Numbered from the stretch's first letter, positions 10,837 to 61,303 are shown. The stretch: DNA of 64,000 bases from an uncultured Acidobacteriota bacterium (GCA_963763535.1 CAVXOX010000008.1:963975-1027974), one strand, 5' to 3'. Program-made: numbers and translations. Notes: generated from the letters alone by a model not told the origin.

Positions 10837-10865
10837 TCGCGTTTCTCCGATTCCTGACCCCGTGC

Positions 10866-11012
10866 GGGGGCAAGCCCCTTCCCGACATTGCCCTCGACCC
10901 GACCCGGCGGGGGCAAGCCCCGCCCCTACATTGCCCTCGACCTGACCGCGGCGGGGGCAAGCCCCGCCCCTGCGTTGCCCTCGACCTGTAGGGGCGGCCC
11001 TTGCGGCCGCCC
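10866..11012. repeat. BIME-like cluster: three tandem 43-44-bp units (GGGGGCAAGCCCCGCCCCTACATTGCCCTCGACCTGACCGCGGC) plus one inverted REP (TGTAGGGGCGGCCCTTGCGGCCGCCC)
   Basis: Unit starts at 10866, 10909 and 10953. The period is not a multiple of 3. Each unit is the reverse complement of a degenerate REP core. Confidence 0.7.
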
Positions 11013-11088
11013 GTTGCCGGGGTGTGAAGGCAGCAGCCCGCTCTCGTCGAAGTCGTATCCGTACAGCGACTCCCGGCGCGGCTGCGGC

Positions 11089-11598
11089 CTCCTCCCCCCG
11101 CATCCACGCGGCCGCGAGCTCGACGGCCTCGAAGATCTTCACGTACCCGGTGCAGCGGCACAGGTTTCCCGCGAGCGCCTGGCGGATCTCCGGCAGCGTC
11201 GGCTTCGGGTTCGCCTCGAGGAGCGCCTTCGCCGTCAGCAGGAACCCCGGCGTGCAGTAGCCGCACTGCGCGGCGCCGAGCTCCGAGAACGCCTTCTGCA
11301 GCGGATGGAGTCCCTCCGGTCCGGCCATGCCCTCGACCGTCTCGACGCGCCGGCCCTCGCACTCGAGCCCGAGCACGAGGCAGGAGAGGACGGGCTTTCC
11401 ATCGACGAGCACGGCGCACGTGCCGCATTCGCCGAGCTCGCAGCCGTGCTTCGTGCCGGTCAGCGCGAGGTCCTCGCGGAGCACCTCGAGGAGCGTCTTG
11501 TGCGGCTCGAAAGCCGCCTCGACGCGCTCGCCGTTGACTGTCAGGGAGACGAGGGCCTTCGACCGCTCAGCCGCCGAATTTTGCCTGCGACGCGCCAT
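11089..11598 (-). CDS. [2Fe-2S]-binding small subunit of the molybdo-hydroxylase (CoxS-like); the 3' boundary is only an estimate because there is no in-frame stop
   Basis: Ferredoxin-like CELGECGTC plus a four-helix-bundle 2Fe-2S pair (CGYCTPG, CRCTGY). The domain ends near WMRGEE, about aa 170. The track reports a single 1066-aa ORF 8398..11598 reading through the repeat cluster. Confidence 0.7.
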
Positions 11599-12585: not shown

Positions 12586-15500
12586 CTACGGACCGTAAAG
12601 GAGCAACCCGAACGTCTTCGTCAGGAAGACCGCCATCTGTCCGCGCGTCACCGACGCATCCGGACAGTAGTTGCCGCCGCCGCAGCCGCCGGTGATCCCC
12701 TCTGCCGAGAGCCGTTCGATCCAGTCGACCGCGAAGCCCGCCGGACACGGCACGTCGCCGAAGAGGCCCGCGCACGACGGCGGCACGTAGGCCGAGCCGT
12801 GCTCCCCCTTGAGCAGGAAGACCGCCATCTGGGCCCGCGTGACCGGGTTCGCCGGGCAGTAGTTGCCGCCGCCGCAGCCGCCGGTGATCCCCTCGGCGTA
12901 CAGCCGCTCGATCCAGTCGACCGCGAAGTCGCCGGGACACGCCACGTCGGCGAAGACGCCGGCGCACGGCGGCGGCGCGTACGTCGAGCCGTGCTCGGCC
13001 TTCAGGATGAACACCGCCATCTGCGCGCGGGTGACCGGGTTTCCCGGGCAGTAGTTGCCGCCGCCGCAGCCGCCCGTGATCCCGTTGTGGAAGATGTTCT
13101 CGATCGACGCGTAGAAGAGGTTCGCGTTCGCCACGTCGGGGAAGCTGTCGCCGACGTGGAGCGTCCAGGTCCGCGACGCGCCGGTCGAGATCAGCTCGTC
13201 GAAGGTCGCGTCCCAGTGCGGCGCCGGGCGTGAGGCGGGGTTGTCGACGCCCATCGCATAGCAGTTGCCCGTCGCGTCGTGGCAGTTCGCCGCCCCGTTG
13301 GCGGGAATCGAGCCGTAGTCGGCCGACGAGTGCGCGAGCGTGTACGTGGCGCCCGAAGGTCCCGTGAAGTTCGAGGCGGTGCCGGTCAGCGCGAGCGCGG
13401 TCGACTTGCCGTTGAAGTAACCCGGCTCGACCGTGACCGTCTCGCCCGGCTCGAGGACGCCGTTGACCGCGAGTCCCGAGGGCGCCGTGGCCGCGTGCGC
13501 GTCGACGTGGAGCGAGATCGGGATCGGCGAGCAGCAGAAGTGGCCGTCGGCGACCGAGACCGAGTCGATCCGCCAGCCGGTTCCCGAGACGCTGCTGTCG
13601 GAGCCCATCCGCCAGCGGAGCACGACGTTCTGGCCGGCGGCCCCCGGCGGCAGTGCGACGGCCGTCGTCACGTAGCCGCCGGAGCTGCCGGTCCAGGCCG
13701 GACGAGCGCCGAGCGGATTGCCGGTCGTGCCGTCGAGCGTGCCGACGTATCCGCCGGAGGCGAAGCTCCCGCCCGCCGCCACGACGTCCTGGAACGCGCC
13801 GCCGCCGATCGAGATCTCGAGCACGCCGCCGTCGAAGCCGTTCTCGAGGGCATAGGAGCTGCGGAACGTCAGCTGCGCGCTCGACGTCGTGATCGCGATC
13901 GAGGGCGAGTCGAGCCGCTTGTCGGACGCGCTGCCCGGATCGTCCACGAAGGCGTCGTTCGGCGCCGTGTCGGGGGACGTCGCGCTCGTGACCCACAGCG
14001 GCGCCGCGCCCTGGGCGTTCGCCGCGGACCAGCCCGCCGGCAGCGCGGGAGGCACCGCGCCGTCGAAGTTCTGCGCCAGCACGCCGTTGGCGGTGCCCGT
14101 CGGCAGGTCGAACTGCAGGGTGCCCATGTTCGCCGTTCCGTCCTGGAGCGCGAGCACCGCGGCGATCGGCGTCCCGCACGCCGTGTCGGGATCCACCGTG
14201 AAGGTGAAGTCCCGGCACGCGGATCCGCCCGATCCCGCGATCGCGCCGTAGTCCTGCGGGGAGGAGGGCGCGGTCACGCCGCCGGAGGCCTGGAGGGTGG
14301 CCACGAGGTTGCCGGTGCTCGCCCCGCCCGAGTTCTGAATGCAGAACGTGTAGGTGACCGTCTCGCCGGGATCGGAGCGGCCGTTCGGCGGCTGACAGCT
14401 CTCCGCCTGGAGCGTGGCGTCGCCGACCGCGAGGACGACGGCGCCGGTCAGGCACGCGTCGAGCGTCGTCGGCGAGCCGTCGACGATCGTGACGGGGCTC
14501 GTGAACGACCCGAATCCCGGGAACGCGATCGTCGCCGTGTAGTCGCCGGGCGGCAGGTCCATCGCGTAGACGCCCGAGGCGTCGGTCGCGCGGAGGTAGC
14601 CGCCGCCGACCGTGACGATGGCGCCCGCCAACGGGCCGCCGCCGCAGTTCGTCACCGTTCCCGTGAGCGTCCCCTTCGGCGCCGGGCTGCAACCCGGGAA
14701 CTTGAAGGTGCCGACGCGGGTCGCCCAGTCGAACGAGCCGTTGTTCGCGTAGTACTCCTGCGCGTACCAGAAGGTGCAGTCGTCCGAAGGGTCGATCGAC
14801 ATCGCGCTGTAGTCGCCCCATCGCGCGGCCGCGTCCTGCTGGACTCCCGCTCCGGCGAACATCGTCGCCTCGCCCTGCGAGAGCGCGTTCGCCGGATCTC
14901 CCGCGAGGCGTCCCGCCCAGAGGATCGACGGCAGCAGGCTCGTGCTCGAGGCCGAGAAGCCGACGGCGCTGTTGCCCTGGTGGTCCTGCGCCGTCGAGCC
15001 CATCCAGAGGTTGCGCCCGTTGGAGCCGTCGCCGGATCCGGGCGCGTAGGTGACCTGGTTCTTGATCGTGAAGTCGCCGGTGCCGCCGTCGCGCCGCAGC
15101 TCCTCGAAGCGCACGCCCGCCTGGAAGGTCGACGCGGTCGTCGGGTTGACCCCGCTGACGTTCACGGTCCAGTTGAGGACGAACGACTCGACGCCTCCCG
15201 AGAGCGTCCGGTAACCGATGCGGTACATCATCCGGTCGGCGATCGCGTCCACGTATTGCGCGCTCGTCGCCGGAGAGGGCTGCTCGATCGCGTTGCGCGC
15301 GCCCGGGGACCGCGCGTCGAAAGCCGCAACGGCGAGATCGGGCCGCACCGTGAGTGTCGAGCTCGCGGGATCGGCGAAGTCCGCGTGGAACTCGTAGATC
15401 CGGAGCGCGTCGAACGGGTCGCCGAACTCGTCCGCGCGCCACTCCATGAAGAAATTGGGCGTGCCGGCGGGCGGCGGCGTCAGGCCGTTCAGGTGCGTCG

Positions 15501-16377
15501 GGAGCATGCCGCCGGCCGTGATGTCCACGGTCCCGTAGTTGAAGTAGATGTAGGAGGCGGCGGCGTCGCCGACGAGCATCTTCGAGCGATCGAAGGCATA
15601 GAGCCCGGCGCCCGCGTAGGCGCTCCCTCCGGGCGTGAACTGGTTGTCCGACATGTAGTAGCCGTCGGGCCAGACGCCGAAGTGCGGATAGTCGTTCAGG
15701 AGGTTCGGCATCAGGAAGTCGTACAGGTAGTACGACCCGGTGGGATCGCCCGTCTGCGACACGGCGATCAGCTGGTGGTAAGGCGGATTCAGCCCGCTCG
15801 GAAGACAGAACTGGCTGATGAACCAGCGGTCGGCCATCGTGTCGTAGAGGACGATCGGATCGCCGTCGTTGCGGCCGCCGCAGGGCGCGCCGATGGGCGC
15901 GAAGAGGCTCGACAGCTTCGTCGGCGCCGTCAGCGGCGCGCCCGTCTTGTCGTAGACGCGGAAGAGCGAGTTGACGATCTCCACGACATGGCCCGGCCCG
16001 ACGTCGGCGTTGGTGTCCGGCGGCTCGACGCGCGATCCGAACGCGGCCTGGTCGTCGTCGGCGGAGAGACCCGCGAACGTCAGGGTCGGCCCGGGCATGC
16101 CGCCCTCGGGCGCCTCGGATTGGAGCGCCCCGTCGAAGCCCGCTTCGGGAGCGGCCGCGCGCGCGCGCGGGTTTCGCGGCACGCGCTCGTTCGAGCGGAT
16201 CCAGTTCGCCGGAAGATTCTCGTTCGGGGCGGGCGACTCGGGCGGCAGGTCGCGCACGCGCGCCGACGCCACGACGGTGCGGGCGCGGGACGAGACCGGA
16301 ACGGGCCGCGGACCGTCCGCCCAAAGGACGGTCGAAGACACGAAGAGCATTCCCGCGGTCGCCAACGCACGGCGCAT
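12586..16377 (-). CDS. Large secreted multidomain surface protein (1263 aa) ending in three Cys-rich SLH-like repeats
   Basis: ATG at 16377 with a GAGGAG RBS and a signal peptide MRRALATAGMLFVSSTVLWA. N-terminal roughly 600 aa of unknown fold. A carboxypeptidase-regulatory-like domain (TLTGTVTNCGGGPLAGAIVTVGG). A lectin/LamG-like region. C-terminal repeats [25 protein letters not shown]...[12 protein letters not shown] repeated three times, the same module as the 51-64 kb paralogs. Confidence 0.8.
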   Translation of the reverse strand: MRRALATAGMLFVSSTVLWADGPRPVPVSSRARTVVASARVRDLPPESPAPNENLPANWIRSNERVPRNPRARAAAPEAGFDGALQSEAPEGGMPGPTLTFAGLSADDDQAAFGSRVEPPDTNADVGPGHVVEIVNSLFRVYDKTGAPLTAPTKLSSLFAPIGAPCGGRNDGDPIVLYDTMADRWFISQFCLPSGLNPPYHQLIAVSQTGDPTGSYYLYDFLMPNLLNDYPHFGVWPDGYYMSDNQFTPGGSAYAGAGLYAFDRSKMLVGDAAASYIYFNYGTVDITAGGMLPTHLNGLTPPPAGTPNFFMEWRADEFGDPFDALRIYEFHADFADPASSTLTVRPDLAVAAFDARSPGARNAIEQPSPATSAQYVDAIADRMMYRIGYRTLSGGVESFVLNWTVNVSGVNPTTASTFQAGVRFEELRRDGGTGDFTIKNQVTYAPGSGDGSNGRNLWMGSTAQDHQGNSAVGFSASSTSLLPSILWAGRLAGDPANALSQGEATMFAGAGVQQDAAARWGDYSAMSIDPSDDCTFWYAQEYYANNGSFDWATRVGTFKFPGCSPAPKGTLTGTVTNCGGGPLAGAIVTVGGGYLRATDASGVYAMDLPPGDYTATIAFPGFGSFTSPVTIVDGSPTTLDACLTGAVVLAVGDATLQAESCQPPNGRSDPGETVTYTFCIQNSGGASTGNLVATLQASGGVTAPSSPQDYGAIAGSGGSACRDFTFTVDPDTACGTPIAAVLALQDGTANMGTLQFDLPTGTANGVLAQNFDGAVPPALPAGWSAANAQGAAPLWVTSATSPDTAPNDAFVDDPGSASDKRLDSPSIAITTSSAQLTFRSSYALENGFDGGVLEISIGGGAFQDVVAAGGSFASGGYVGTLDGTTGNPLGARPAWTGSSGGYVTTAVALPPGAAGQNVVLRWRMGSDSSVSGTGWRIDSVSVADGHFCCSPIPISLHVDAHAATAPSGLAVNGVLEPGETVTVEPGYFNGKSTALALTGTASNFTGPSGATYTLAHSSADYGSIPANGAANCHDATGNCYAMGVDNPASRPAPHWDATFDELISTGASRTWTLHVGDSFPDVANANLFYASIENIFHNGITGGCGGGNYCPGNPVTRAQMAVFILKAEHGSTYAPPPCAGVFADVACPGDFAVDWIERLYAEGITGGCGGGNYCPANPVTRAQMAVFLLKGEHGSAYVPPSCAGLFGDVPCPAGFAVDWIERLSAEGITGGCGGGNYCPDASVTRGQMAVFLTKTFGLLLYGP

Positions 16378-16433
16378 GACGTCTCCTCTGAAATCGATCG
16401 CAGGAAGGTAGCGCCCGGGTGGCGCCGAAGTCA

Positions 16434-17657
16434 ACGCGCCGCCCCGGAGCCCTTGAAGATCTGCCCGCCCTTCATGACGAAGATCACATTTTCGGTGACG
16501 TGGATGTCGCGGAGCGGGTCACCCGGGACCGCGACGACGTCGGCGTCCTTGCCCTTCTCGAGCGTGCCGATGCGCGCCGCGAGGCCGAGCAGCTCGGCCG
16601 CGCCCGGGCCGGCGGTGCGCAGCGCCGCGGCGGGGCTCATGCCGAGATCGACCATGAGCGCGAACTCGCGGGCGTTCAGGCCGTGGGGCGACACGGCCGA
16701 GTCCGTGCCGAACGCGATCTTCACGCCGCTCTTCAACGCGCGCCGGAACATCTCGTCGTGCGCGGCTTGCGCCGCCTTCGCCTTCGCGGCGATCGCTGGC
16801 GGGAAGCGCTCGCTCTTGCCGCCCGTCCAGACGCCGGCGAGGCACGTCGGCACGAGGAAGGTGCCCTTCGACTTCATCAGCGCGAGCGTCTCGTCGGTGA
16901 CGAACGACCCGTGCTCGATCGAGTCGACGCCGGCTCGCACGGCGGCGCGCGCGGCCAGGTCGCCGTGGGCGTGCGCCGCCGTCTTCCGATTCAGACGATG
17001 CGCCTCGTCGATGATGGCAAAGAGCTCCGCGTCGGTCAGCTGCGGCGCGGCGACGTCGTCGCCGAGCGACAGAACGCCGCCCGAGGCGCACATCTTGATC
17101 ACGGTCGCGCCGTACTTGACGTTCAGGCGCACCGCCTCGCGCGCCTCGTCCGGGCCGCTGACGATCCCCCGCTCGACGCCCGGCTCCTTGCCGAAGGTCT
17201 CCGGAGGGAACCCGGTCACGTCGCAGTGGCCGCCGGTCGAACCGAGCGCATAGCGCGCGACGAGCATTCGCGGGCCGGGCGTGAGGCCGGCATCGATGGC
17301 GTTGCGCAGCCCCACGTCGAGGTCCTTCTCCGAGCCCACGTCGCGCACCGTCGTGAACCCCGCCTCGAGCGTGCGGCGCGCGTACGCCCCGCCGTAGAAC
17401 GCCTGTTCGGTCACGGGACGCCGCAGCTCGGTGAAGAAGTCCTGCACGTAGTTGTCGCCGGCCTGGCCGGTCAGGTGCGTGTGCGAATCGATGAAGCCGG
17501 GCAGGATCGTCGCGTCGCCGAGGTCGACCACCGTCGCACCGGGAGGGACGGTGAGCCCGGAGCCGGCGGCGGTGATCTTCCCGCCCTCGACGACGACCAT
17601 CGCGTTCGGGATCGTCGCGTCCGAGCGGCCGTCGAACATCCGGGCCGCGCGCAGCAC
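16434..17657 (-). CDS. Amidohydrolase-family metal-dependent hydrolase (imidazolonepropionase / Xaa-Pro dipeptidase-like)
   Basis: Metal-binding HxH (DSHTHL), carbamylated-Lys region (KMCASGG), HAHGD, and a C-terminal D (FGTDS). A plausible signal peptide (MKRIEMLILGTTLATTVALS, ATG about 17768) lies upstream in another frame across a CG-dinucleotide run. Confidence 0.8.
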
Positions 17658-19023: not shown

Positions 19024-19149
19024 GCCGCTCCCGATGACGTCGTTGACCGACAGCGCGACGATCTCCCAGCGGGAGACGGCGCGCAGGAAGCCGGGCGACT
19101 TCGGTTCGGCGGAGCTCAGGGTGGCGGCATTCTAGATCAGCGTTTTGGT

Positions 19150-26861: not shown

Positions 26862-26873
26862 CGCGAAGGAGAC

Positions 26874-42596: not shown

Positions 42597-44601
42597 ATGA
42601 GAGCCGTTCGCGAGGCGGTCGGACTTCTTCTCGGCGTTCTGTTCTGTGCTCCGGTCTTCGCCACCGATCTCGTGATCGGCCACGTTCGCGTCAGGGAAAC
42701 TTCATGGGAACCGACGCGGCGGGAGCTGCGGCGATCGGAAACTTCGCGGGCGTCACGATCACCGGCGGAACGTCGATCGACCTCGTCGGAGACGCCGATC
42801 CGGCGGCGCGCAACCTGATCTCGGGCAACATCGTCGGAATTCGAGGTGACCGGGACCGGGTCCGCGAAAATCCTCGGGAACCTGATGGGCATCGACGCCA
42901 GCGGCTCCACCGCCGTCGGGAACGTCACGGGGATCTATCTCTCCGGCTCCTCGAACAACCAGGTCGGCGGCCCGGACCTCGGCGACGCGAACGTCGTCTC
43001 CGGGAACGGCAGCGAAGGGATCGACCTCGACGGCTGAGCAGGTGTCCTCTCCCAAGGCGAGTACCTGCTCGGGACCGAGAGACCGGCGAAGGCGAGGTCC
43101 TCCGCCGGGAGAGCGCGTTCCGGCAGGGCCCGAGAACTTTACCGGGCGACGAAGATCCTCGGGCGACGTCGGCCCCGGGATCGAGCTCAACTACGGCTCG
43201 CTCAAGCACGCATCGTCCAGGACGCGATCAACTCGAACATGATCGGGGCCGCCTTATGGCACCTCTCCGATTCCCAACGGCGGAGCGGGGATCCGCATCG
43301 ACGGCGGCGACTCGCTCCGGATCTTCGGCAACGGGATTTTCTTCAATCCCGTGGGCATCTGGAGGCTCGCGCCCGTGAGCTTCGCGAGCGTCGTCGTCAC
43401 GCAGAACTCCTTCCACGGCAACCACGGCCTCGCGATCGTCCTCGGCCCGGCGGCTGCGATCTCGCCGAACTCGCCCGGCAGCCCGTTCAACTTCCCCTTC
43501 GTGACCTCGGTCACGACCGACGGGACGTCGACGACCTTCGGCGGCCTTTATGCGGGGCCGCCGAACAGAACGTCAGGATCGAGCGCCGAGACCCTGAAGG
43601 CTCCCACGAGCAGTCCGGAACGGCGAAGGCCTGACGTGGTTAGACTCAGTCACGTCATGTCCGCCGGACCGGAAGTCTGGCGTTCGAAGACACGAGTGTT
43701 CGGAGACCTGACGGCGGAGCGGATCGCGGCGACGGCGACGACCGTCCTCGTCCCGCTCGCCCCCGAGGGCGGCAGCCTCCCCACCATCGAAACCTCCGAG
43801 TTCTCGCAGCGCCTGCCGTTCTCGATCGTGCCGCGCTCGGGGCCCGGTGCCGGGGGAAATCCGGTGACGGTCGCGGGCACGAGTTTCGACCCCGCCGCGA
43901 TCTTGAAGATCGGCGGAGCGGCCGCGGGAAGCGTGATCGTGTCGAACGCTGGCCAGATTACGGCGACGACGCCCGCCCTCGCGCCCGGCGCCGCCTACGA
44001 CGTGTCCGTGACCAATCCCGACCTCACCCGAGGCACGATCGCGCTCGGCTTCGTCGCCGACTTCCTCGACGTCCCGCCGTCCAATACGTTCACGACTACG
44101 TGACGTCGCTCGCGGCCAACGGCATCACGGGCGGCGTCGGCGGAGGCAACTACGGCGTTTCTCTCTCCGTCCTGCGCCAGCAGATGGCCGTCTTCCTGCT
44201 CAAGGCCCGCACGGCCTGTGCTACGTCCCGCCCGCCTGCACCGGCGTCTTCCCCGACGTGCCCTGCCCGTCCACCTTCGCCGACTGGATCGAGGCCCTCG
44301 CAGCCGAGGGCATCACCGGCGGCTGCGGCGGCGGCAGCTACTGCCCGCAGAACCCCGTCCGACGCGACCAGATGGCCGTCTTCCTTCTGAAGGCCGAGCA
44401 CGGCTCGGGCTACACGCCTCCCGCCTTGCACCGGCGTCTTCCCCGACGTCCCGTGCTCCTCGCCGTTCGCGCCCTGGATCGAGCAGCTCGCCGCCGAGAA
44501 CATCACCGGCGGCTGCGGCGGCGGCAACTACTGCCCCGGCAACGACAACACGCAGGGGACAAATGGCCGTCTTCGTCGTCAAAACATTCGGCCTGCAGTA
44601 G
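42597..44601 (+). pseudogene. Decayed remnant of the CSLREA/beta-helix/IPT/SLH-like paralog family
   Basis: ATG at 42597 with an AGGAGG RBS and signal peptide. Beta-helix-like GN.IG segments. An IPT-like block ([32 protein letters not shown]...). C-terminal repeat fragments ([67 protein letters not shown]). All are scattered over three frames, and large sections are missing relative to the intact 740-aa paralogs. Confidence 0.55.
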
Positions 44602-51472: not shown

Positions 51473-53683
51473 ATGAAGATCACCGTCCGCGGATTCGCCC
51501 TGCTCCTGTCCGGCCTCCTGATCGCCCTCGCCGCGCCAGGCGCCACGTTTACCGTCACCAACACGAACGACAGCGGACCGGGCTCGCTTCGTCAGGCGAT
51601 CCTCGACGCCAACGCCAGCCCTGGCGCGGACACGATCGCGTTCGCGATCCCCGGCGCCGACCCCGGCTGCGACGGCACGGGCGTGTGCACGATCGCGCCG
51701 ACGTCTCAGCTCCACTCCATCGACGAGGCGGCAATGCTCGACGGGTACACGCAGCCGGGCGCCTCGCTCAACACGGCGACGTTCGGATCGAACGCGGTGC
51801 TCAAGATCGTGGTTTCGGGAGTGAACATCCCGGGTGCGGGCGGCATCCTGCCCGGCGCGGCGGGCGTGACGGTTCGGGGCGTCGTCATCAATGGCGGCTT
51901 TCACTCGGCCATCGACATCCTGACGGAGGGCGACGTCCACGTCGAAGGCTGCTTCATCGGGACCGACGCCTCGGGGTCGAGCGCCGTTCCGAACACCGTC
52001 GGCGTCGACTTCTTCCTGAAGGGCGTCGGCAGCGTCATCGGCGGCCCGGCCCCCGGCCAGCGCAACGTCATCGGCTCCGGCCAGCACGGCGTCAGCGGCA
52101 GCAATGTGGCGGGCGCGACGATCCAGAACAACCTGATCGGCACGGACAAGAGCGGCGTCGTCACGCTGCCCCAGGCCGTCGGCGGCGACGGCATCGCGAT
52201 CGGCGCCTGCAATGCCGGAGATCCGCTCGATTCGATTCTCGACAACGTCGTCGCCGGCTTCTCAGGCTATGCGATCCACAACAGCTGCCTGCCCGCGACC
52301 ATTCAGGGCAACCACATCGGCATCGACGCGACGGAAACCGTCGTCTTTGCTCCCGTGACCACGTACGGCATCGCTCCCGGCGAGGGCTCGATCGTCGGCG
52401 GCGTCAACCCCGGCGAGGGCAACGTCATCACCGGGATGCGGGGCGTCGGCATTCTCGGCGACAACTTCGCCGGTGGCACGATCCGGGGCAATTCGATCTG
52501 GGGAAACGGCGGGAACCCGAATTACTCGGGCCTCGGCATCGACATGCTCGGCGACGGGCCGACGAAGAACGACCCGGGAGACGCCGACATGATCCAGAAC
52601 TTTCCCGTCCTGAAGACGGTCACGAACGGCGCGACGACGCACGTCACGGCCGCCCTGCACTCGGCGGCATCGACCCTCTACGACGTCGACTTCTACGCGA
52701 ACCCCGCCTGCTCGAACTTTCCGCGCGAGTACGACGAGGGCAAGACGTTCCTCGGGTCGACCCAGGTGACGACGAATGGCTCGGGCACGGCATCCATCGA
52801 CGTCACACTCCCGGTCGCGACCGAAGACGGCTCCCGCCTCACGATGGTTGCCACGAACCACGCGACGGGCCGCTCCTCCGAGTTCTCGCAGCGCCTCCCC
52901 TTCCTCGTCCTGCCGTCGTCGGGACCCGCGGGGACCGGAATCCCGATGACGATCTACGGCACCGACTTCGCCGCCGGCGCAACGGTGGCGATCGCCGGCG
53001 CCCCCGCCACGGCCGTCACGGTCGTGAACGACGGCCAGATCAGCGCCACCTCGCCGATTCTGACTCCCGGCACCGTCAACGATCTCGTCGTGGCCAACAC
53101 GGATGGCACGACGGGAACGCTCGTCAAGGGCTGGGTCGCCGACTTCCTCGACGTCGACGGAGGCAACCAGTTCTACCAGTTCGTCACGACGCTCGTCTCG
53201 AACGCGATCACCGTCGGCGTCGGGAGCGGCGCGTACGGAATCGGCCAGCCGACGCTGCGTCAGCAGATGGCGGTGTTCCTGCTCAAGGCCGAGCACGGCC
53301 TCTGCTATGCGCCGCCGCCCTGCTCCGGCGTTTTCCCGGACGTTCCGTGCTCGTCGAACTTCGCGCCCTGGATCGAGCAGATGTCCGCCGAGGGGATCAC
53401 CGGCGGCTGCGGCGGCGGCAGTTTCTGTCCGAGTAGCCCCGTCCGGCGCGACCAGATGGCCGTCTTCCTGCTGAAGACCGAGCACGGCTCGTCGTACTCG
53501 CCGCCCGCCTGCGCCGGCGTCTTCCCGGACGTGCCGTGCTCCTCCCCCTTCGCACCGTGGATCGAGCAGCTCTTCAACGAGCAGGTCACGGGCGGCTGCG
53601 GCGGCGGGAACTACTGCCCGGCGAACGCCAATACCCGCGGCCAGATGGCGGTGTTCATGGTCAAGACCTTCCATCTCCAGTAG
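51473..53683 (+). CDS. Surface-protein paralog 1 (736 aa): signal peptide, CSLREA-like N-motif, right-handed beta-helix repeats, IPT/TIG, three Cys-rich SLH-like repeats; intact
   Basis: ATG at 51473 with a [46 protein letters not shown] repeats. [60 protein letters not shown]. Three repeats (...[12 protein letters not shown]..., ...[12 protein letters not shown]...) ending KTFHLQ*. Confidence 0.8.
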
Positions 53684-54068: not shown

Positions 54069-56346
54069 ATGCGACGCTTCCATCTCGTTCTCACGGCAAT
54101 CCTCGCCACGGTCACGGCCTCGGCCACCACGTTCACCGTCACCAACACCAGCGACAGCGGCGCCGGCTCGCTCCGGCAGGCGATCACCGACGCCAACGCG
54201 AACGCGGGCGCCGACACGGTCGACTTCAACATCCCCGGCTCCGATCCGAACTGCGAGCGGGACCGGCGTCTGCACGATCACGCCGACGGCGTCCGAGCCT
54301 GCCTCTGATCACCGATGCCCTGACGATCGACGGCTACACGCAGCCGGGAGCCGCGGTCAATACGTCCGCAACGGGCACGAACGCGGTGCTCAAGATCGTG
54401 CTCTCCGGCGCCAACGCGCCATCGGGGTCCTCGGGTCTGGGCCTCGGCGCGAACTCGATCACGATCCGCGGGCTGGTGATCGGGAGGGGATTCCTCGACG
54501 GAATCGCGGCCGGCTTAGTCAGCGACCTTAAGGTCATCGGCTGCTTCATCGGCGTCGACACGACGGGCAACACGGCGTTTCCTAACATCCGCAACGGGAT
54601 CTATTTCGCGTCACGGACGGCGTCACGATCGGCGGCACGGCACCCGCCGACCGCAACCTGATTTCCGGGAACGGGAACATCGGCTTGGCCGTCGATCTCG
54701 GCGAGCACGACGGGGCCCAACGTCATCCTGGGAAACCTCGTCGGGACCAACGCCGCCGGAACCGCCGCGATCCCCAACTCATCGGACGGGGTGGTCGTGA
54801 GCACCAACGGGCTCGGCGGCTCATTCACGATCGGCGGGTCCGCGGCCGGCGCCGGCAACGTCATCTCCGGCAACGGCGCGCGCGGCCTCTTCGTCGGCGG
54901 CTTCGGCAGCGGGACCGCCTTCACCGTGCAGGGCAACCTCGTCGGCACCGACGCGACCGGGACGCTGCCGGTTCCGAACGGCAGCTACGGCGCTTCGCGC
55001 CGTCTCCAACGGCGCCGCCATCGGAGGCATCGGGGCCGGCGAAGGCAACGTGGTCGCATACAACACCGGCGGCGGCGTGGTGGACGACGCGGGAGAGACC
55101 AACGTCTCGATTCGGGGCAACTCGATTCATGACAATGGATTCGGTTTCCTCGGGCACGGCGTCGGCATCGATCTGAGCGTCAACATCGGCGGCGACGGAG
55201 TCACGCCGAACGACCCGGGCGACGGCGACACGGGCCCGAACAACTACCAGAACTTCCCGATCGTCTCCTCGGCGGCGGCGCTCGCCCCGTCGAGCGGCAC
55301 GCATGTGACGGGCGTCCTGCACTCGACGCCCTCGACCACCTTCGATCTCGACTTCTACGCGAACGACGCGTGCATTCCACACCCCCACGACTTCCTCCAG
55401 GGGCGGACCTACCTCGGGTCCGGGCCAGGTCATGACGGACGGCTCGGGAACCGGGTCGTTCTCCATCGACGTGGCCGGGACGATCCAGCCGGGCGAGCGC
55501 GTCAGCGCGACCGCCACGGACCCGACCGGCAACACGTCCGAGTTCTCGCAGAGGCTTCCCTTCTCCATCAACCCGGCCTCGGGAGACCCGGCGGGCGGCG
55601 CGGCGGTGACCATCTCCGGCACCGACTTCCTCGCCGGCGCGACGGTCACGATCGGCGGCGTCGCCGCGACGAACGTCAACGTCGGGAGCTTCAACAGCCT
55701 GACGGCGAATGCGCCCGCGCTCGCGCCGGGCTCGCTGAACGACGTCGTGGTGACGGACTCGGACGGCGCGAGCGGCACGCTCGAGGCCGGCTACGTGGCG
55801 GACTTCCTCGACGTCCCGCCGTCCCAGCAGTTCTACAGCTACGTGACGACGCTCGTGACGAGCAAGATCACGGTGGGCGTCGGCGGCGGCAACTACGGGG
55901 TGGGCCAGGACACCCTGCGCCAGCAGATGGCGGTCTTTCTGCTGAAGGCCGAGCACGGACTGTGCTACACGCCACCGCCGTGCACGGCCCAGCTCTTCGG
56001 CGACGTGCCCTGCTCCTCGGGCTTCGCGCCCTGGATCAACGAGCTCGTCGCCGAGGGAATCACCGGAGGGTGCGGCGGCGGCAACTATTGTCCGACGAAC
56101 CCGGTCCTGCGCCAGCAGATGGCCGTCTTCCTGCTGAAGGCGGAGCACGGCTCCTCCTACGTCCCGCCCGGATGCGCCGGGGTCTTTCTCGACGTGCCCT
56201 GCCCCTCGCAATTCGCCGACTGGATCGAGCGGCTCGCCGCGGAGGCCATCACCGGAGGTTGTGGCGGAGGCAACTACTGTCCGAGCTCGACGGCCAATCG
56301 CGGCCAGATGGCGACGTTCGTCGTCAAGACCTTCAACCTTCAGTGA
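54069..56346 (+). pseudogene. Surface-protein paralog 2, same architecture, broken by about six frameshifts
   Basis: ORFs 54069..54308, 53936..54661, 54791..55132, 55050..(55450) and 55432..56346 hold successive conserved segments in different frames (for example NIPGSDPNC|[14 protein letters not shown]|TDGVTIGG, GSYGAS|...GVAISNGAA, YLGSG|QVMTDGSG). Confidence 0.55.
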
Positions 56347-56375: not shown

Positions 56376-58685
56376 ATGAAACCCCTGGTCCGGATCTCGA
56401 TCAAAATCGCTTTCCTCGCCGCCTGTCTCGCCGCCGCAGTGCCGCTCATCGCCGCCACCTACACCGTCACAAATACCGGCGACAGCGGCGCGGGATCGTT
56501 GCGCGACGCCATCAACCAGTCCAACGCGAGCGTCGGGGTCACCGACACGATCGCTTTCAACGTCACAGGCACCGGGTGTGCCGGCTCTCCGGCCGTCTGC
56601 ACGATCAAGCCGCTCGCTCCCCTGCCCAACATCACCGACGCCGTGATCGTCGATGGCTACACACAGCCCGGCTCGAACCCGAACACGCTCGCGGTCGGCG
56701 ACAACGCCGTGCTCCTGATCGAGCTCGACGGCAGCCAGATCGGCACCTTCGCCTACGGGTTCCTGATCTTCACGGACAACACCACGATCCAGGGACTCGT
56801 GATCAACCGGTTCTCGAACCCCGGGATCGGCATCGACACGACCGGCGGCGGCGGCGCGGGCGGCCACGTCATCCGGGGCAACTTCATCGGGACGAATCCC
56901 GCGGGAACCGCGGCCGCGCCCAACTCGGTATATGGCATCTATGTCCGTTCCCCGAACAACCGCATCGGCGGCCCGAACCCCGCGGATCGCAACGTCATCG
57001 TCGGCGGCTCGGGCGCCTTCGCGACCTGCATCCGGTTCGAGGGGGATTTCGGAGGCGCGACGGATGGAGACGTCGTCCAGGGTAACTACCTCGGAACCGA
57101 CAAGACCGGAACCTTGCCGCTCGGGGGCGGCGACGGCGTCTACATCGGTCCGGGCTCGGGCATCACGGTCGGAGGGGCCGGCGCCGGGGAAGGCAACCTC
57201 ATCTCCGGAAACACCGGCTACGGCATCGACATGACGTCGCCCGGATGCGTGGGCACGATCTCCGGAAACGTCATCCAGGGGAATCTTATCGGCACCGACG
57301 CCTCCGGGACTTCTCCGCTCCCGAACGGCCTCGGCGGCATTCTTCTGAGCTGCACAACCAGCGGTAATCAAATCGGCGGCACGGCCGCGGGCGCCGGCAA
57401 CTTGATCGCCAACAACGGAGTCTCCCCCGGCCAGGGCGGGGGCATCTTCCTCGACTCCACCGCAGGCACCGGAAACGCGATTCGAGCCAACCGGATCTTC
57501 TCGAACAACATCCTCGGTATCGGCCTGAAGGTCAGCTACGCCCTTCCGAACGACCCCGGCGATCCGGACTCCGGTCCGAACAACCTTCAGAACTTTCCGA
57601 TCGTCTCGTCGGCGGCCCCGGGATCCGGAACCACACACATCACCGGCGTGCTCCACAGCACGGCGAACACGACCTACGACCTCGACTTCTTCTCGAATCC
57701 CGCCTGCATCCCGTTCCCCCATGAATATCTCGAGGGCACCGCCTACCTCGGCTCTGGCATGACGACGACGGACGGCGGCGGGACCGGGACATTCGACGTC
57801 GTCGTCCCCGTGCAGATCGGGGCCGGCGAGCACGTGACGGCGACCGCGACCGATCCGGCAGGCAACACCTCGGAATTCTCGCAACGACTGCCGTTCACCA
57901 TCTTCCCGGCGTCGGGCCCGTCGGCGGGAGGCACCTTCGTCTCCATCGGCGGCACGGATTTCGAGGCCGGCGCGACCGTTACGATCGGCGGCGTCGCCGC
58001 GACCAACGTCGTCGTCTCGAACTCGATGAACCTGTCGGCCCAGACGCCGGCCCTCGCCTCGGGCTCCCTCAACGACGTCACGGTCAGCAACACCGACGGA
58101 TCGAGCGGCACGCTGCTCATGGGGTTCGTCGGCGACTTCCTGGACGTGCCGGAGTCCTATCAGTTCTATTCCTTCGTGACCAAGCTCGTCTCGAACGCGA
58201 TCACGGTGGGCTGCGGCGGCGGAGATTACTGCCCCGCGGCCAACGTGACACGCGCGCAGATGGCTGTGTTTCTGCTCAAGGCCAAGTACGGGCTCTGCTA
58301 TGCGCCGCCGCCCGCGAGCGGCACCGTCTTCAACGACGTGCCCGCCAGCGCGTTCGCCGCGGCCTGGATCGAGGCCTTGGCGGCTCTCGGCGTCACCGGA
58401 GGGTGCGGCGGCGGCAACTACTGCCCCAACGGATCCGTCACGCGTGCGCAAATGGCCGTCTTCCTCCTGAAGACGTTCCTGGGAACCACCTACGTTCCGC
58501 CCACCTGCACCGGCGTCTTCGGCGACGTGGTCTGCCCGGGAACGTTCACCGACTGGATCGAGGACCTCTACGCCCGCTCCATCACGGGCGGCTGCCAGGC
58601 GAGTCCGCTTATGTACTGCCCCTCGAACCCGAACACGCGCGGCCAGATGGCGGTCTTCATCACGAAGACCTTCAACCTGCAATGA
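56376..58685 (+). CDS. Surface-protein paralog 3 (769 aa); intact
   Basis: ATG at 56376 with an AAGGAG RBS. ATYTVTNTGDSGAGSLRDAINQSNA. NDPGDPDSGPNNLQNFPIVSSA. HITGVLHSTANTTYDLDFFSNPAC. IPT, then three repeats ending KTFNLQ*. Confidence 0.8.
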   Translation: MKPLVRISIKIAFLAACLAAAVPLIAATYTVTNTGDSGAGSLRDAINQSNASVGVTDTIAFNVTGTGCAGSPAVCTIKPLAPLPNITDAVIVDGYTQPGSNPNTLAVGDNAVLLIELDGSQIGTFAYGFLIFTDNTTIQGLVINRFSNPGIGIDTTGGGGAGGHVIRGNFIGTNPAGTAAAPNSVYGIYVRSPNNRIGGPNPADRNVIVGGSGAFATCIRFEGDFGGATDGDVVQGNYLGTDKTGTLPLGGGDGVYIGPGSGITVGGAGAGEGNLISGNTGYGIDMTSPGCVGTISGNVIQGNLIGTDASGTSPLPNGLGGILLSCTTSGNQIGGTAAGAGNLIANNGVSPGQGGGIFLDSTAGTGNAIRANRIFSNNILGIGLKVSYALPNDPGDPDSGPNNLQNFPIVSSAAPGSGTTHITGVLHSTANTTYDLDFFSNPACIPFPHEYLEGTAYLGSGMTTTDGGGTGTFDVVVPVQIGAGEHVTATATDPAGNTSEFSQRLPFTIFPASGPSAGGTFVSIGGTDFEAGATVTIGGVAATNVVVSNSMNLSAQTPALASGSLNDVTVSNTDGSSGTLLMGFVGDFLDVPESYQFYSFVTKLVSNAITVGCGGGDYCPAANVTRAQMAVFLLKAKYGLCYAPPPASGTVFNDVPASAFAAAWIEALAALGVTGGCGGGNYCPNGSVTRAQMAVFLLKTFLGTTYVPPTCTGVFGDVVCPGTFTDWIEDLYARSITGGCQASPLMYCPSNPNTRGQMAVFITKTFNLQ

Positions 58686-58852: not shown

Positions 58853-61303
58853 ATGCGACTCCGCCTCGCGCTCGCCGGAGCCCTGCTCGCGCTTCCCGTC
58901 GCCGGCGCGACGTTTACCGTCACCAATGTCAACGACTCCGGCGCGGGCTCGCTGCGCCAGGCGATCCTGGACGCCAACGCCAATCCGGGCGCGGACACGA
59001 TCGCCTTCAGCATCGCGGGAAGCGGGGTGCAAACGATCGCGCCGCTGACCCCCCTCGACACGATCACCGACGCGGTCACGATCGACGGGTACTCGCAGCC
59101 GGGCGCATCGGCGAACACGAATCCGCCGGAGATGGGCACGAACGCGGTTCTCCGGATCGAGCTCGACGGAACGCACTCGGGCGGCACGGTGGACGCGGGC
59201 GCGTTGAAGACGCAGGGGCCCGCGAACTCGAACGTCACTATCCGCGGTCTCGTCATCAACCGTGCGCCGTCGAGCGGCATCGTCCTCTTCGGCCAGGGAA
59301 GCAACTTCGTCGTGGAGGGCTGTTTCATCGGGACCGACCCGACCGGGCTGACCTCGATCGACCTCGACAACACGCTGGGCATCCTGATCGACGCGAGCGC
59401 CACGAACGTCCGGATCGGCGGCACGACCCCCGCGGCGCGAAACGTCATCTCGGGCAACTCCAGCGCCCAGATCGCGACCGGCTGCGAGCTCAGCGCGGGC
59501 GGTTCGGGCCACCTGATCCAGGGCAACTTCATCGGCCCCGACGCCACGGGCGCCGCGGCGCCGCCGCACAACTACGCCGGGCAGGGCGGCGGCGTCGGCT
59601 TCTGCTACGGGACATCGACCGTGACGCTCGGCGGAGCCACCGCGGCCGAACGAAACGTCATCGCCGGCAATCCGGGCATCGCCGTCAACCTGGGAAGCAG
59701 CTTCAGCAACGACGTCCACGACATCACCGTCCGCGGCAACTACATCGGGACGGACGTGACCGGCGCGGCCCCGCTCGGCAACGGCGAGCATCGGCATCCG
59801 GGTCAACCAGCCCAACAACAGCATCTTCGAACAACGTCATCGCGTCGAGCGGCGCCGAGGGCATCCAGGCCGAGGGGGGCACGACCCTCGTGCAGGGCAA
59901 TTTCATCGGCACCGATGCCACCGGAATGCTTCCGCTCGGCAACGCCAGTGCGGGCATTCACGTCATCAGTTCCGGCGCGCAGATCGGCGGCACAGGCGCG
60001 AACGAGCCGAACGTGATCGCCTTCAACGGAACGTCGACTTTCTCCGGCCACGGCGTGTGGGTCGAGAACGGCACCGGCTCGGCCATCCGCGCCAATTCCA
60101 TCCACGACAACCTCGCCCTCGGGATCGCGTTTCAAACCGGCGGCAGCGCGACGCCGAACGATCCGGGGGACGGCGACATCGGCCCCAACGGCCTCCAGAA
60201 CTTCCCCGTCCTGTCGACGCTGACGCCGGCGTTTCCCGAAACTCCGGAGGCCGGACTGCACATCCAGGGCACCCTGCACTCGACGCCTTCGACGACGTTC
60301 GACCTGGACTTCTTTTCCAACCCGGCGTGCGTGAGGTTTCCCAAGGACTTCCTGGAGGGCGCGAGGTACCTGGGGTCGGGTGTCGTCACGACCGACGGCG
60401 CCGGCACGGGCATCGTCGACGTGACGGTGCCGATCGGGATCGCGGCGGGCGAGCACGTCAGCGCGACGGCCACCAGCCCCTCCGGCAGCACGTCGGAGTT
60501 TTCTCAGCGGCTCCCCTTCTCCCTCAACACCGGTTCCGGCGACGCGGCCGGCGGCGGGGCGATCACGGTCTTCGGCACAGACTTCGAGGATGGGGCGACC
60601 GTCACGATCGGGGGGACTCCCGCGACGGGGATCGTCGTCGTCTCGACAACATCCATCACCGCGGTGACGCCCGCGCTCGCGGCGGGCAGCGCCAACGACC
60701 TCGTCGTGACGAACACCGACGCCACGACCGGAACGCTCGTCAAGGGCTGGGTCGCGGACTTCCTCGATGTTCCGGGCGGACAGCAGTTCCACCAGTTCGT
60801 CACGACGCTCGTTTCCAGCGGGATCACCGCGGGAGTCGGCGGCGGCCTCTACGGCGTCGGCGACGACACGCTGCGCCAGCAGATGGCGGTGTTCCTGCTC
60901 AAGGCCGCCCACGGCCTCTGCTACACGCCTCCGCCGTGCACGACGCAGGTCTTCACGGACGTGCCCTGCTCCTCCAACTTCGCGCCCTGGATCAACGAGC
61001 TCGTCACCGAAGGCATCACCGGCGGTTGCGGCGCGGGCGTCTTCTGTCCCCAGAACCCCGTGCGCCGCGATCAGATGGCGGTGTTCCTGCTGAAGGCCGA
61101 GCATGGGCTGGGATACACGCCGCCCGCCTGCGTCGGCACGTTTCCCGGACGTGCCGTGCTCGTCGAACTTCGCGCCGTGGATCGAGCAGCTCGCGGCGGA
61201 GAACATCACCGGCGGCTGCGGCGGCGGCAACTACTGCCCCGGCCTCTCCGCCAACCGCGGCCAGATGGCCACGTTCGTGGTCAAGACGTTCCAGCTGCAG
61301 TGA
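58853..61303 (+). CDS. Surface-protein paralog 4; two or three apparent frameshifts (about 59790-59830 and about 61145)
   Basis: N-terminal 320 aa in ORF 58853..60016, the middle in ORF 58813..61485, and the C-terminal repeat in ORF 61103..61303. The second shift is an extra C in tttcccggacgtg compared with paralog 1 (ttcccggacgtg in frame). Confidence 0.6.

What the first reader, a model, noticed from the sequence alone, without database searches (positions are those of the whole stretch)
12586..16377. Cys-rich SLH-like C-terminal triple repeat, shared by otherwise unrelated secreted proteins
The roughly 150-aa C-termini of the 1263-aa protein here, of all five tandem paralogs, and of the remnant at 42.6-44.6 kb share one repeat unit, repeated three times. 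The unit is Y.PP.C.G.F.DV.C...[20 protein letters not shown]...[14 protein letters not shown], with four conserved Cys. Its skeleton (F.DV ... W ... I..L...GI.GG ... F/YCP ... VTRAQMA.FL) matches the S-layer-homology consensus, with an inserted CGGGNYC loop. This points to one common cell-wall/S-layer anchoring module, possibly disulfide- or metal-stabilised, attached to different passenger domains. I do not recognise the exact variant as a named family.
Basis: partly seen in the sequence, partly recalled or inferred. Interest (0 to 1): 0.7.

Follow-up and report, generated by a model that had tools for sequence, protein, structure and literature searches.

The report
Cysteine-paired SLH cell-wall anchor, Acidobacteriota
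The shared C-terminal triple repeat is a genuine S-layer-homology (SLH) cell-wall-anchoring module that existing databases already recognise, and its unusual features are cysteines that always come in pairs and its abundance in an uncultured soil lineage where SLH anchors were thought to be nearly absent.

Summary
The 1263-aa protein (12586-16377, minus strand), five tandem paralogs (51.5-63.7 kb) and a decayed copy (42.7-44.6 kb) all end in three 64-aa repeats with the stated consensus.

- Pfam PF00395 scores 70 bits against a cut-off of 20.8.
- An AlphaFold model (pLDDT 94) superposes on the B. anthracis Sap and P. alvei SpaA SLH trimers.
- NCBI already names close homologs "S-layer homology domain-containing protein".

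Two details are wrong. This is a named family, and CGGGNYC is not an insertion, because the loop has the canonical length.

New here:
- The cysteines are gained, lost or shifted strictly in pairs (C1-C2 and C3-C4). This favours two disulfides per repeat over a four-Cys metal site.
- The ligand-binding residues SLH-Gly29 and SLH-Arg43 are invariant.
- The source is a Thermoanaerobaculia (Acidobacteriota) metagenome contig.
- The 80 best genome matches, of at least 550 confirmed, are all from that phylum. The module usually has exactly three units, sits at the extreme C-terminus, and often occurs in tandem gene arrays.
- A CsaB-type pyruvyltransferase is present in two related genome bins. It was not found in this window, and the rest of the source genome could not be checked.

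Verdict: a new variant of a known kind, of moderate interest.

The parts
12586..16377 (-). Gene for a 1263-aa exported protein. It has a Sec-type signal peptide (MRRALATAGMLFVSSTVLWA, read by eye), an N-terminal ~580 aa with no family match, CarboxypepD_reg (aa ~589-662), a region resembling the C-terminal part of sortase-dependent M36 peptidases (aa ~666-1006), and three SLH repeats.
   Evidence: ORF. Pfam and NCBIfam. The exact product is on record on ENA ERZ25039551 contig_11142. An intact 1266-aa ortholog in L002 is 87% identical, with dN/dS 0.17.
12586..13146 (-). SLH trimer of the main protein (aa 1078-1263). It consists of three 64-aa units with GITGG in each and TRAQ/TRAQ/TRGQ. There are 10 Cys: C3 and C4 in unit 1, and C1 to C4 in units 2 and 3.
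   Evidence: PF00395 E = 1.2e-19, 70.4 bits, 3 stretches. AlphaFold pLDDT 94. Foldseek to 3PYW E = 8e-10. dN/dS 0.12 against L002.
51473..53683 (+). Paralog P1 (736 aa, intact): signal peptide, beta-helix region, Ig/TIG, SLH trimer (53141-53683).
54069..56346 (+). Paralog P2, with the same architecture but at least 4 reading-frame changes. Its SLH trimer (55801-56346) is in one frame.
   Evidence: tblastn segments fall in frames 3, 1, 2, 3 and 1. Translations.
56376..58685 (+). Paralog P3 (769 aa, intact). Its SLH trimer is 58134-58685. Unit 2 has lost C1 and C2 together, and unit 3 has a 2-residue longer C3-C4 loop (CQASPLMYC).
58853..61303 (+). Paralog P4, with 2 frame changes (near 59.8 kb, and near 61.12 kb inside the SLH module). 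The SLH trimer is 60757-61303.
61482..63707 (+). Paralog P5 (741 aa, intact). The SLH trimer is 63162-63707.
   Evidence: PF00395 gives only 15.8 bits here, below the gathering score.
42692..44601 (+). Pseudogene of a sixth beta-helix/TIG/SLH paralog. It lacks about 147 N-terminal codons, including the signal peptide, and its pieces lie in several different frames. All three SLH units are still recognisable (about 44080-44601).
   Evidence: blastn synteny with L061 and L066. Intact 788-aa ortholog in L061. tblastn frames. Unit translations.

Best explanation
The tail is a true SLH pseudo-trimer. Three SLH repeats fold into the three-pronged spindle known from Sap and SpaA.

**What it does (inferred).** It serves as a non-covalent C-terminal anchor that holds Sec-exported proteins with unrelated passenger domains on a cell-envelope glycan. 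[quoted passage not shown]

**Binding grooves (inferred from the SpaA structure).** By the SpaA rule, each groove is built from SLH-Arg43 of one repeat, SLH-Gly29 of the next repeat and SLH-Trp13 of the third.
- Gly29 is present in all three repeats of every copy, and Arg43 in every readable repeat.
- Trp13 is present only in repeats 2 and 3.
- Two complete grooves are therefore expected.

**What is special (inferred from covariation).** The subfamily carries two disulfides per repeat.
- C3-C4 (G-G-C-x5-C-P) staples the groove-lining loop. It starts at SLH-30, directly after the Gly29 that flips on ligand binding.
- C1-C2 (PPxC...DVPC) ties the inter-repeat linker to the start of the repeat.

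**Shown here:** family membership, fold, conserved ligand residues, pairwise Cys covariation, purifying selection, the lineage, and CsaB in relatives.

**Inferred only:** the actual disulfide bonds, the ligand, and the compartment where anchoring happens.
For: **Family and fold.**
- PF00395 scores 61-70 bits against a cut-off of 20.8.
- The profile matches 6BT4 at E = 8e-15 across all three repeats.
- The AlphaFold model has pLDDT 94 and pTM 0.88.
- The 15 Foldseek matches with E <= 0.001 are all SLH trimers.

**Ligand-binding residues.**
- GIIxG/Gly29 is present in 21 of 21 units. Arg43 is present in 20 of 20 readable units.
- The roles of these residues come from PMC6081394.

**The trimer is inherited as a unit.** Units at the same position in different proteins are 60-69% identical. 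Units at different positions are 48-49% identical.

**Cysteine pairing, three data sets.**

| Data set | Pair | Both | Neither | One only |
|---|---|---|---|---|
| (units from 120 homologs) | C1/C2 | 182 | 80 | 8 |
| (517 unique units, 80 genome loci plus the window) | C1/C2 | 252 | 92 | 10 |
| | C3/C4 | 469 | 27 | 6 |
| (50%-identity representatives) | C1/C2 | 73 | 279 | 3 |
| | C3/C4 | 473 | 7 | 1 |

- All 8 single-Cys units carry a substitute Cys 5 residues downstream.
- Most single-Cys cases listed show a shifted partner Cys or are truncated matches.

**Selection.** dN/dS is 0.12 for the module against the L002 ortholog, and all 10 Cys are conserved.

**Architecture in relatives.** 158 of 165 SLH ORFs in related loci have exactly 3 units. 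Of the 159 with at least 3 units, 92% end within 15 residues of the last unit.

**CsaB in the lineage.**
- L039 scores 214.8 bits on TIGR03609 (cut-off 213.1), and L063 scores 205.7.
- Both match PF04230, at E = 6e-42 and 7e-35.
- NCBI names a Thermoanaerobaculia protein CsaB.
Against: - No PF04230 or CsaB gene lies in the 64-kb window or its 10-kb extension.
- None of the 40 CsaB homologs retrieved comes from the 2.04-Mb source contig. A ligand-making enzyme in this genome is therefore unproven.
- Disulfides are inferred from covariation only. I could not read Cys-Cys distances from the model.
- The covariation counts are not corrected for shared ancestry.
- All six beta-helix copies carry one extra Cys (HGLCY), which gives the module an odd Cys count.
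- SpaA's pyruvate-contacting Lys130 has no equivalent here, so the ligand could differ.
- Acidobacteriota are diderm (my own knowledge). It is unclear how large passenger domains anchored to a peptidoglycan-linked polymer would reach the cell surface.
Confidence: 0.7

Rival explanations
1. The fold and anchoring role are the same, but the ligand is different. The module would bind something other than a CsaB-pyruvylated wall polymer. Candidates are polyamine-modified peptidoglycan, as for Negativicutes OmpM, or a pyruvylated or otherwise anionic glycan on the outer face of the outer membrane (LPS O-chain, capsule or EPS). This would display the passengers outside a diderm cell.
For: - No csaB was found in the window or traced to the source contig.
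- csaB lies near SLH genes in only 2 of 80 loci, and those two are syntenic with each other, so this is one independent case.
- SpaA's Lys130 has no equivalent here (one search compared).
- The passengers look extracellular: beta-helix, TIG, Reprolysin protease, and the M36-associated domain.
- In other taxa the M36-associated domain carries outer-membrane sorting tags, according to the NCBIfam family names.
Against: - Arg43 and Gly29, the residues that hold the pyruvate carboxylate in SpaA and Sap, are invariant.
- A CsaB equivalog exists in the lineage.
- No data here point to any particular alternative ligand.
Confidence: 0.2
2. The four cysteines of each repeat form one metal site (Zn or Fe) rather than disulfides.
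For: Repeats 2 and 3 have four Cys with CxnC-type spacings.
Against: - The two pairs behave independently. 90 units keep C3 and C4 with neither C1 nor C2, and 279 units lack both C1 and C2. A tetrahedral site would not survive that.
- C2 can move 5 residues, or C1 can be replaced by a new Cys after C2, always keeping a pair.
- The proteins have signal peptides and are therefore in an oxidising compartment.
Confidence: 0.05
3. The repeat is not SLH at all. It would be an unrelated Cys-rich repeat family that only mimics the SLH consensus.
For: P5 alone scores below the Pfam cut-off (15.8 bits). Short 16-residue local hits to DUF7569 occur on the GGCGGGxYCP motif in some homologs.
Against: - PF00395 is far above its cut-off for the main protein, P1 and P3.
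- The sequence profile and the predicted fold both hit only SLH trimers.
- The DUF7569 hits cover 16 of 70 profile positions.
Confidence: 0.02

Closest known systems
SLH domain trimers of Gram-positive S-layer and surface proteins: B. anthracis Sap (PDB 3PYW, 6BT4), P. alvei SpaA and SlhA (6CWC and related), G. stearothermophilus SbsB (4AQ1)
   Same: - Same Pfam family.
- Three tandem repeats with the same predicted three-pronged spindle fold (TM 0.75/0.83 to 3PYW).
- The GIIxG and TRAE-type motifs are kept, with Gly29 and Arg43 conserved.
- Trp13 is present in two of three repeats, so two complete grooves are expected, as in SpaA.
- SlhA also carries its SLH trimer near the C-terminus of a non-S-layer protein.
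   Different: - Two covarying Cys pairs per repeat, whereas the Sap sequence aligned has no Cys at those positions.
- The motif is TRAQ or TRGQ, and RRDQ or LRQQ in the paralogs, rather than TRAE.
- SpaA's Lys130 has no equivalent.
- The host is an Acidobacteriota lineage rather than Firmicutes.
- The module is at the extreme C-terminus in 92% of cases.
OmpM / SlpA / Omp-alpha outer-membrane tethers of diderm Terrabacteria (for example PDB 8BYM)
   Same: An SLH domain used in a diderm envelope, with CsaB-dependent pyruvylated polymer as the usual ligand (10.1101/2021.05.31.446380). The profile also hits 8BYM, at E = 4e-7.
   Different: - OmpM has a single N-terminal SLH followed by a coiled coil and a beta-barrel porin.
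- Here there is a C-terminal triple SLH behind soluble passenger domains, and no barrel is detected.
C-terminal sorting tags on related passengers: GlyGly-CTERM/rhombosortase and MYXO-CTERM/myxosortase M36 peptidases (NCBIfam NF038111, NF038112)
   Same: Residues 666-1006 of the main protein resemble the region just upstream of the sorting tag in those proteins (E = 4e-22 and 4e-19). A C-terminal element decides where an exported protein is retained.
   Different: Those tags are short transmembrane-type signals processed by a dedicated protease. This module is a 190-aa folded, non-covalent glycan-binding domain.
CWB2 triple repeats of Clostridioides difficile surface proteins
   Same: Three tandem repeats form a pseudo-trimer that binds an anionic wall polymer through conserved arginines (discussed in PMC6081394).
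   Different: The fold and family are different. No sequence or fold match was found here.

Membership tests
SLH domain (Pfam PF00395 / PROSITE PS51272) | Scores above the curated family threshold | tested here: met
   Scores against a gathering score of 20.8 bits: main protein 61 bits; isolated tail 70.4 bits with 3 stretches; P1 33.9 bits; P3 54.5 bits. P5 is below threshold at 15.8 bits.
SLH domain (Pfam PF00395 / PROSITE PS51272) | Three tandem repeats folding into the three-pronged spindle pseudo-trimer | tested here: met
   AlphaFold pLDDT 94 and pTM 0.88, with two helices per repeat. Foldseek gives 3PYW at E = 8e-10 and TM 0.75/0.83, followed by 6BT4 and the SpaA entries. The profile aligns all three repeats to 6BT4 residues 15-195.
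SLH domain (Pfam PF00395 / PROSITE PS51272) | GIIxG motif with the conserved SLH-Gly29 | tested here: met
   The motif reads [GAKQSN][IV]T[GVAS]G in all 21 units, and the second Gly is invariant. The motif definition comes from PMC6081394.
SLH domain (Pfam PF00395 / PROSITE PS51272) | TRAE-type motif with SLH-Arg43 | tested here: met
   The motif is TRAQ, TRAQ, TRGQ in the main protein and LRQQ, RRDQ, TRGQ or NRGQ in the paralogs. Arg is present in 20 of 20 readable units, and R52, R116 and R180 are invariant in the 61-sequence alignment.
SLH domain (Pfam PF00395 / PROSITE PS51272) | SLH-Trp13 that stacks on the sugar | tested here: inconclusive
   Trp is present in repeats 2 and 3 of every copy (WIE or WIN). 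It is replaced in repeat 1 by Ser, Phe, Tyr or Asp. By the SpaA rule, two of the three grooves would be complete.
SLH/CsaB anchoring system | A CsaB pyruvyltransferase (PF04230 / TIGR03609) in the same genome | tested here: inconclusive
   - None is present in the window or in L001.
- None of 40 CsaB homologs maps to the 2,036,321-bp source contig.
- CsaB is present in related genome bins. L039 scores 214.8 bits against a cut-off of 213.1, and L063 scores 205.7 bits.
- The whole source genome could not be scanned.
SLH/CsaB anchoring system | Binding to pyruvylated secondary cell-wall polymer | not testable with these tools
   This needs sacculus pull-down or ITC with 4,6-Pyr-beta-D-ManNAc.
OmpM-type outer-membrane tether | SLH domain joined to a beta-barrel porin, with the SLH at the N-terminus | tested here: not met
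   The SLH module is C-terminal. The passengers are beta-helix/TIG or CarboxypepD_reg plus unknown domains, and no porin family was hit.
S-layer (lattice-forming) protein | Self-assembling lattice domain and very high abundance | not testable with these tools
   There is no expression or lattice evidence. The literature calls S-layers in Acidobacteriota "ambiguous" (10.1101/2024.05.28.596244).

The most novel reading that the evidence does not exclude
A disulfide-stapled SLH/CsaB system could be the main way Thermoanaerobaculia hang dozens of exported enzymes and adhesin-like proteins on their envelope. Thermoanaerobaculia are diderm Acidobacteriota, usually placed in Gracilicutes. The published survey found SLH/CsaB "practically absent" from Gracilicutes. 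In the boldest version, the ligand is a pyruvylated glycan on the outside of the outer membrane, which would be a new topology for SLH anchoring.
Probability: 0.25. Interest if true: 0.6.

Novelty: new variant of a known kind. Interest (0 to 1): 0.35.

Why it matters
**Practical point.** These genes need no new family. They are SLH-anchored exported proteins, and standard tools already say so.

**Three things may interest envelope biologists.**
- SLH domains, classically Cys-free in Gram-positive bacteria, have a large clade with paired cysteines. At least 9,244 representative clusters at 50% identity match the profile at E <= 1e-30. One pair staples the very loop that moves on ligand binding. 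This is a natural experiment on the rigidity of the SLH groove, and a possible route to more stable SLH display tags.
- The clade is concentrated in Acidobacteriota, and also occurs in Anaerolineales. A 2021 survey reported SLH/CsaB as practically absent or lost in these groups. That distribution map, and the evolutionary story built on it, may need revising.
- Tandem arrays with swapped passengers and decaying copies suggest fast turnover of a surface-protein repertoire in abundant, uncultured soil bacteria.

Tried and rejected
- **"Inserted CGGGNYC loop": rejected.** 43 residues align to Pfam positions 2-44, and the loop aligns without a gap in repeats 1 and 2 to Sap GNDKGMFEP.
- **Four-Cys metal site: rejected** on the independent loss of the two pairs.
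- **DUF7569 as an alternative family: rejected.** The hits cover only 16 residues, on the GGCGGGxYCP motif.
- **Literature on Cys or disulfide-containing SLH: nothing relevant.** The one candidate, LysBT1, reports no disulfides, and the paper does not place a disulfide in its SLH domain. Searches for SLH or S-layers in Thermoanaerobaculia or Acidobacteriota found only a remark that S-layers there are ambiguous.
- **Exact look-up of P1: not on record**. The main protein was found and gave the source contig.
- **csaB.**
  - The window ORFs were scanned with Pfam, with E. coli WcaK by phmmer, and with a CsaB HMM built here. All were negative for the window.
  - A database search with the L063 CsaB gave 40 hits, none from the source contig.
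- **Passenger of the main protein.** There was no match to solved structures by sequence, and no Pfam family for aa 1-588.
- **AFDB fold search:** the library was unavailable.
- **Cys-Cys distances:** I could not read model coordinates, so these are untested.


Full report
**1. What is in the sequence**

The window is about 70% G+C, so long spurious ORFs occur in every frame. I used third-position G+C to pick the coding frames.

The flagged gene is 12586-16434 on the minus strand. It encodes 1282 aa, or 1263 aa from the Met at 16377, and the 1263-aa form is the product on public record. Its last ~190 residues are three units spaced exactly 192 nt apart. At the DNA level the copies are 80-84% identical.

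The same tail ends five tandem genes on the plus strand and one decayed copy:

| Copy | Coordinates | State |
|---|---|---|
| P1 | 51473-53683 | intact |
| P2 | 54069-56346 | at least 4 frame changes |
| P3 | 56376-58685 | intact |
| P4 | 58853-61303 | 2 frame changes |
| P5 | 61482-63707 | intact |
| Decayed copy | 42692-44601 | pseudogene |

- tblastn of the main tail gives E = 1e-50 to 2e-63 against P1, P2, P3 and P5. The matches to P4 and the decayed copy are split by frame breaks, with best E = 8e-49 and 3e-24.
- The passenger parts of the main protein and of the paralogs do not align.

Four Cys are typical of units 2 and 3. Unit 1 has two Cys (main protein and P3) or none (P1, P2, P4, P5 and the decayed copy).

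**2. It is SLH, not merely SLH-like**

- *Pfam.* PF00395 hits the main protein at 61 bits and the isolated tail at 70.4 bits in three stretches, against a gathering score of 20.8. P1 and P3 also pass. P5 falls below the threshold.
- *Profile against PDB sequences.* A profile of the tail plus 60 homologs finds B. anthracis Sap (6BT4, E = 8e-15, aligned over all three repeats), 3PYW, SbsB, and the OmpM entries.
- *Predicted fold.* An AlphaFold model built with that alignment has pLDDT 94 and pTM 0.88, with two helices per repeat. All 15 of its Foldseek matches with E <= 0.001 are SLH trimers. 3PYW is first (E = 8e-10, TM 0.75/0.83), followed by 6BT4 and the SpaA structures.
- *Existing annotation.* Homologs are already named "S-layer homology domain-containing protein" by NCBI.
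- *No insertion.* 43 residues align to Pfam profile positions 2-44. [10 protein letters not shown] aligns without a gap in repeats 1 and 2 to GNDKGMFEP of Sap.

**3. Ligand-binding residues**

The SpaA work defines SLH-Trp13, the GIIxG motif with SLH-Gly29, and SLH-Arg43 of TRAE. Each binding groove takes Arg43 from one repeat, Gly29 from the next and Trp13 from the third (PMC6081394).

- Gly29 is present in all 21 units here. Arg43 is present in all 20 readable units.
- Trp13 is present in units 2 and 3 but not in unit 1.
- Two complete grooves are therefore expected, as in SpaA. This is inference.
- Units at the same position in different proteins are 60-69% identical. Units at different positions are 48-49% identical. 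The trimer is therefore inherited as a block.
- Against the intact 1266-aa ortholog in L002 (87% identity), dN/dS is 0.17 overall and 0.12 in the SLH part. All ten Cys are kept.

**4. The cysteines come in pairs**

I name the positions as follows: C1 in PPxC, C2 in DVPC, C3 in GGC (SLH-30, directly after Gly29), and C4 in YCP.

| Data set | Pair | Both | Neither | One only |
|---|---|---|---|---|
| Units from 120 database homologs | C1/C2 | 182 | 80 | 8 |
| 517 unique units from 80 genome loci plus the window | C1/C2 | 252 | 92 | 10 |
| Same set | C3/C4 | 469 | 27 | 6 |
| 493 unique units from 148 representatives at 50% identity | C1/C2 | 73 | 279 | 3 |
| Same set | C3/C4 | 473 | 7 | 1 |

- In one search, every one of the 8 single-Cys units has a new Cys five residues downstream (SPFC).
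- Most of the single-Cys exceptions listed show a re-paired Cys or are truncated fragments. Examples are PPNG...C-P-x-x-V-C and GGACGGYC.
- Inside the window, P3 unit 2 lost C1 and C2 together. The first units of five beta-helix copies (P1, P2, P4, P5 and the decayed copy) lost C3 and C4 together, reading V...G.
- The two pairs are lost independently of each other. This argues against a four-Cys metal site and for two disulfides.

Two caveats apply. The Fisher tests (p down to about 1e-72) ignore shared ancestry. I could not measure distances in the model.

C3-C4 would close the loop that lines the binding groove, directly after the glycine that flips on ligand binding. This suggests a rigidified groove, which is inference.

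Classical Gram-positive secreted proteins tend to avoid cysteine, whereas diderm periplasms are oxidising (my own knowledge). That would fit where this variant is found.

**5. Where it comes from and how common it is**

- The main protein is encoded on ENA ERZ25039551 contig_11142, a 2.04-Mb metagenome contig.
- Neighbouring housekeeping proteins fall in 90%-identity clusters named Thermoanaerobaculia bacterium.
The best 80 loci are all Acidobacteriota or Thermoanaerobaculia genome bins, with several loci per bin.
- In those loci (which include the window and L001), 158 of 165 SLH ORFs have exactly three units. Of the 159 with at least three units, 92% end within 15 residues of the last unit. 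40 of the 82 sequences with such an ORF hold two or more such genes, up to nine in 20 kb.
- In 1.84 billion representative proteins, the profile finds 135,584 proteins at E <= 1e-3 and 9,244 at E <= 1e-30.
- Database homologs named by NCBI also include Anaerolineales.
- Passengers vary: beta-helix/TIG, Reprolysin protease, fn3, Flg_new, and TIGR03803-type repeats.
- At the site syntenic with the window's pseudogene, L061 has an intact beta-helix paralog. L066 has a different passenger with the same tail.

**6. The csaB test**

- No PF04230 gene lies in the window or in the 10-kb extension.
- Using E. coli WcaK as bait against all ORFs of the fetched loci, I found two syntenic genes, in L039 and L063.
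- Both match PF04230, at E = 6e-42 and 7e-35.
- On the CsaB equivalog model TIGR03609 they score 214.8 and 205.7 bits, against a cut-off of 213.1.
- They lie about 5 kb downstream of a Reprolysin-SLH gene and are followed by GT2 and GT4 glycosyltransferases.
- A database search with the L063 protein returned 40 homologs. The top one is named CsaB from a Thermoanaerobaculia genome bin, and none is from the source contig.

CsaB therefore exists in the lineage. For this genome the question is open.

[quoted passage not shown] Another calls S-layers in Acidobacteriota "ambiguous". I found no paper describing Cys-bearing SLH domains.

**7. Verdict**

The module is an ordinary member of PF00395 in fold and key residues, and is used as a C-terminal anchor on varied exported proteins.

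Three things are not ordinary:
- the strictly paired cysteines;
- the size of this clade;
- its concentration in a phylum where SLH/CsaB was reported as nearly absent.

I rate it a new variant of a known kind, with interest 0.35.

The main open points are the ligand, whether csaB is in this genome, the compartment in a diderm cell, and direct proof of the disulfides.

Noticed in passing
window 8238-8332, 19149-19225, 26716-26863, 40429-40519: A dispersed intergenic element with nested palindromes occurs at least four times, in both orientations. Its form is TGTCATCCCGAG...GAGGGATCCCTTT...AAAGGGATCCCTCG...CTCGGGATGACA. It looks like a REP- or MITE-type repeat.
   Followed up: partly
window 10862-10988 (also 5812-5843, 10982-11013, 31452-31483): Three tandem 43-44-nt copies (CGGCGGGGGCAAGCCCCGCCCC...) sit between the 2Fe-2S and molybdopterin parts of the xanthine-dehydrogenase-family reading frame 8398-11598. 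That frame reads through them as one 1066-aa ORF. A related 32-nt motif (TGTAGGGGCGGCCCTTGCGGCCGCCCG) recurs at three sites.
   Followed up: no
window 54069-56346 and 58853-61303: Paralogs P2 and P4 are broken by single-base frame changes in short runs of 2-3 bases, while their neighbours are intact. The source is a 2-Mb contig named contig_11142, which looks like a long-read assembly. Sequencing error and real decay therefore cannot be told apart here. The copy at 42.7-44.6 kb also has a roughly 350-bp 5' deletion and is a true pseudogene.
   Followed up: partly
window: linker after SLH unit 1 of P1-P5 and the pseudogene (for example 53282-53302): All six beta-helix copies carry an extra Cys in HG[LI]CY between units 1 and 2. 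This gives the module an odd number of cysteines. Its partner, if it has one, is unknown.
   Followed up: no
L066 8891-10543 versus L061 475-2841 versus window 42692-44601: At one syntenic site, between a PALP enzyme gene and a radical-SAM gene, related genomes carry different passenger domains in front of the same SLH tail. This suggests passenger swapping.
   Followed up: partly
L039 15278-19147 and L063 14368-18240: A CsaB-type pyruvyltransferase is followed in the same reading frame by GT2 and GT4 glycosyltransferase domains. It lies about 5 kb downstream of a Reprolysin-SLH gene, with a histidine kinase and a methyltransferase in between.
   Followed up: partly
L053 and L074 (whole loci): These loci hold tandem arrays of eight to nine genes for SLH-tailed proteins within 20 kb. 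The five-gene array in the window is therefore typical of the lineage.
   Followed up: partly
window 12586-16377, residues 666-1006 of the product: This part of the passenger resembles the region upstream of the sorting tag in rhombosortase-dependent and myxosortase-dependent M36 metallopeptidases (NCBIfam NF038111 and NF038112). The N-terminal ~580 residues match no family and no solved structure.
   Followed up: partly
L001 5993-6385 versus window 19262-20365: The public gene calls on this high-GC contig look poor. YchF is called as 130 aa where the window has a clean 367-aa ORF, and the xanthine-dehydrogenase-family genes are split by opposite-strand calls.
   Followed up: no
homologs P0001, P0008, P0020, P0055: Pfam DUF7569 gives short (~16-residue) local hits on the GGCGGGxYCP motif. 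Two exceed its gathering score of 27 bits (31.3 and 30.5) and two fall just below. Precomputed annotations therefore list DUF7569 beside SLH, although only a small part of that profile is matched.
   Followed up: partly
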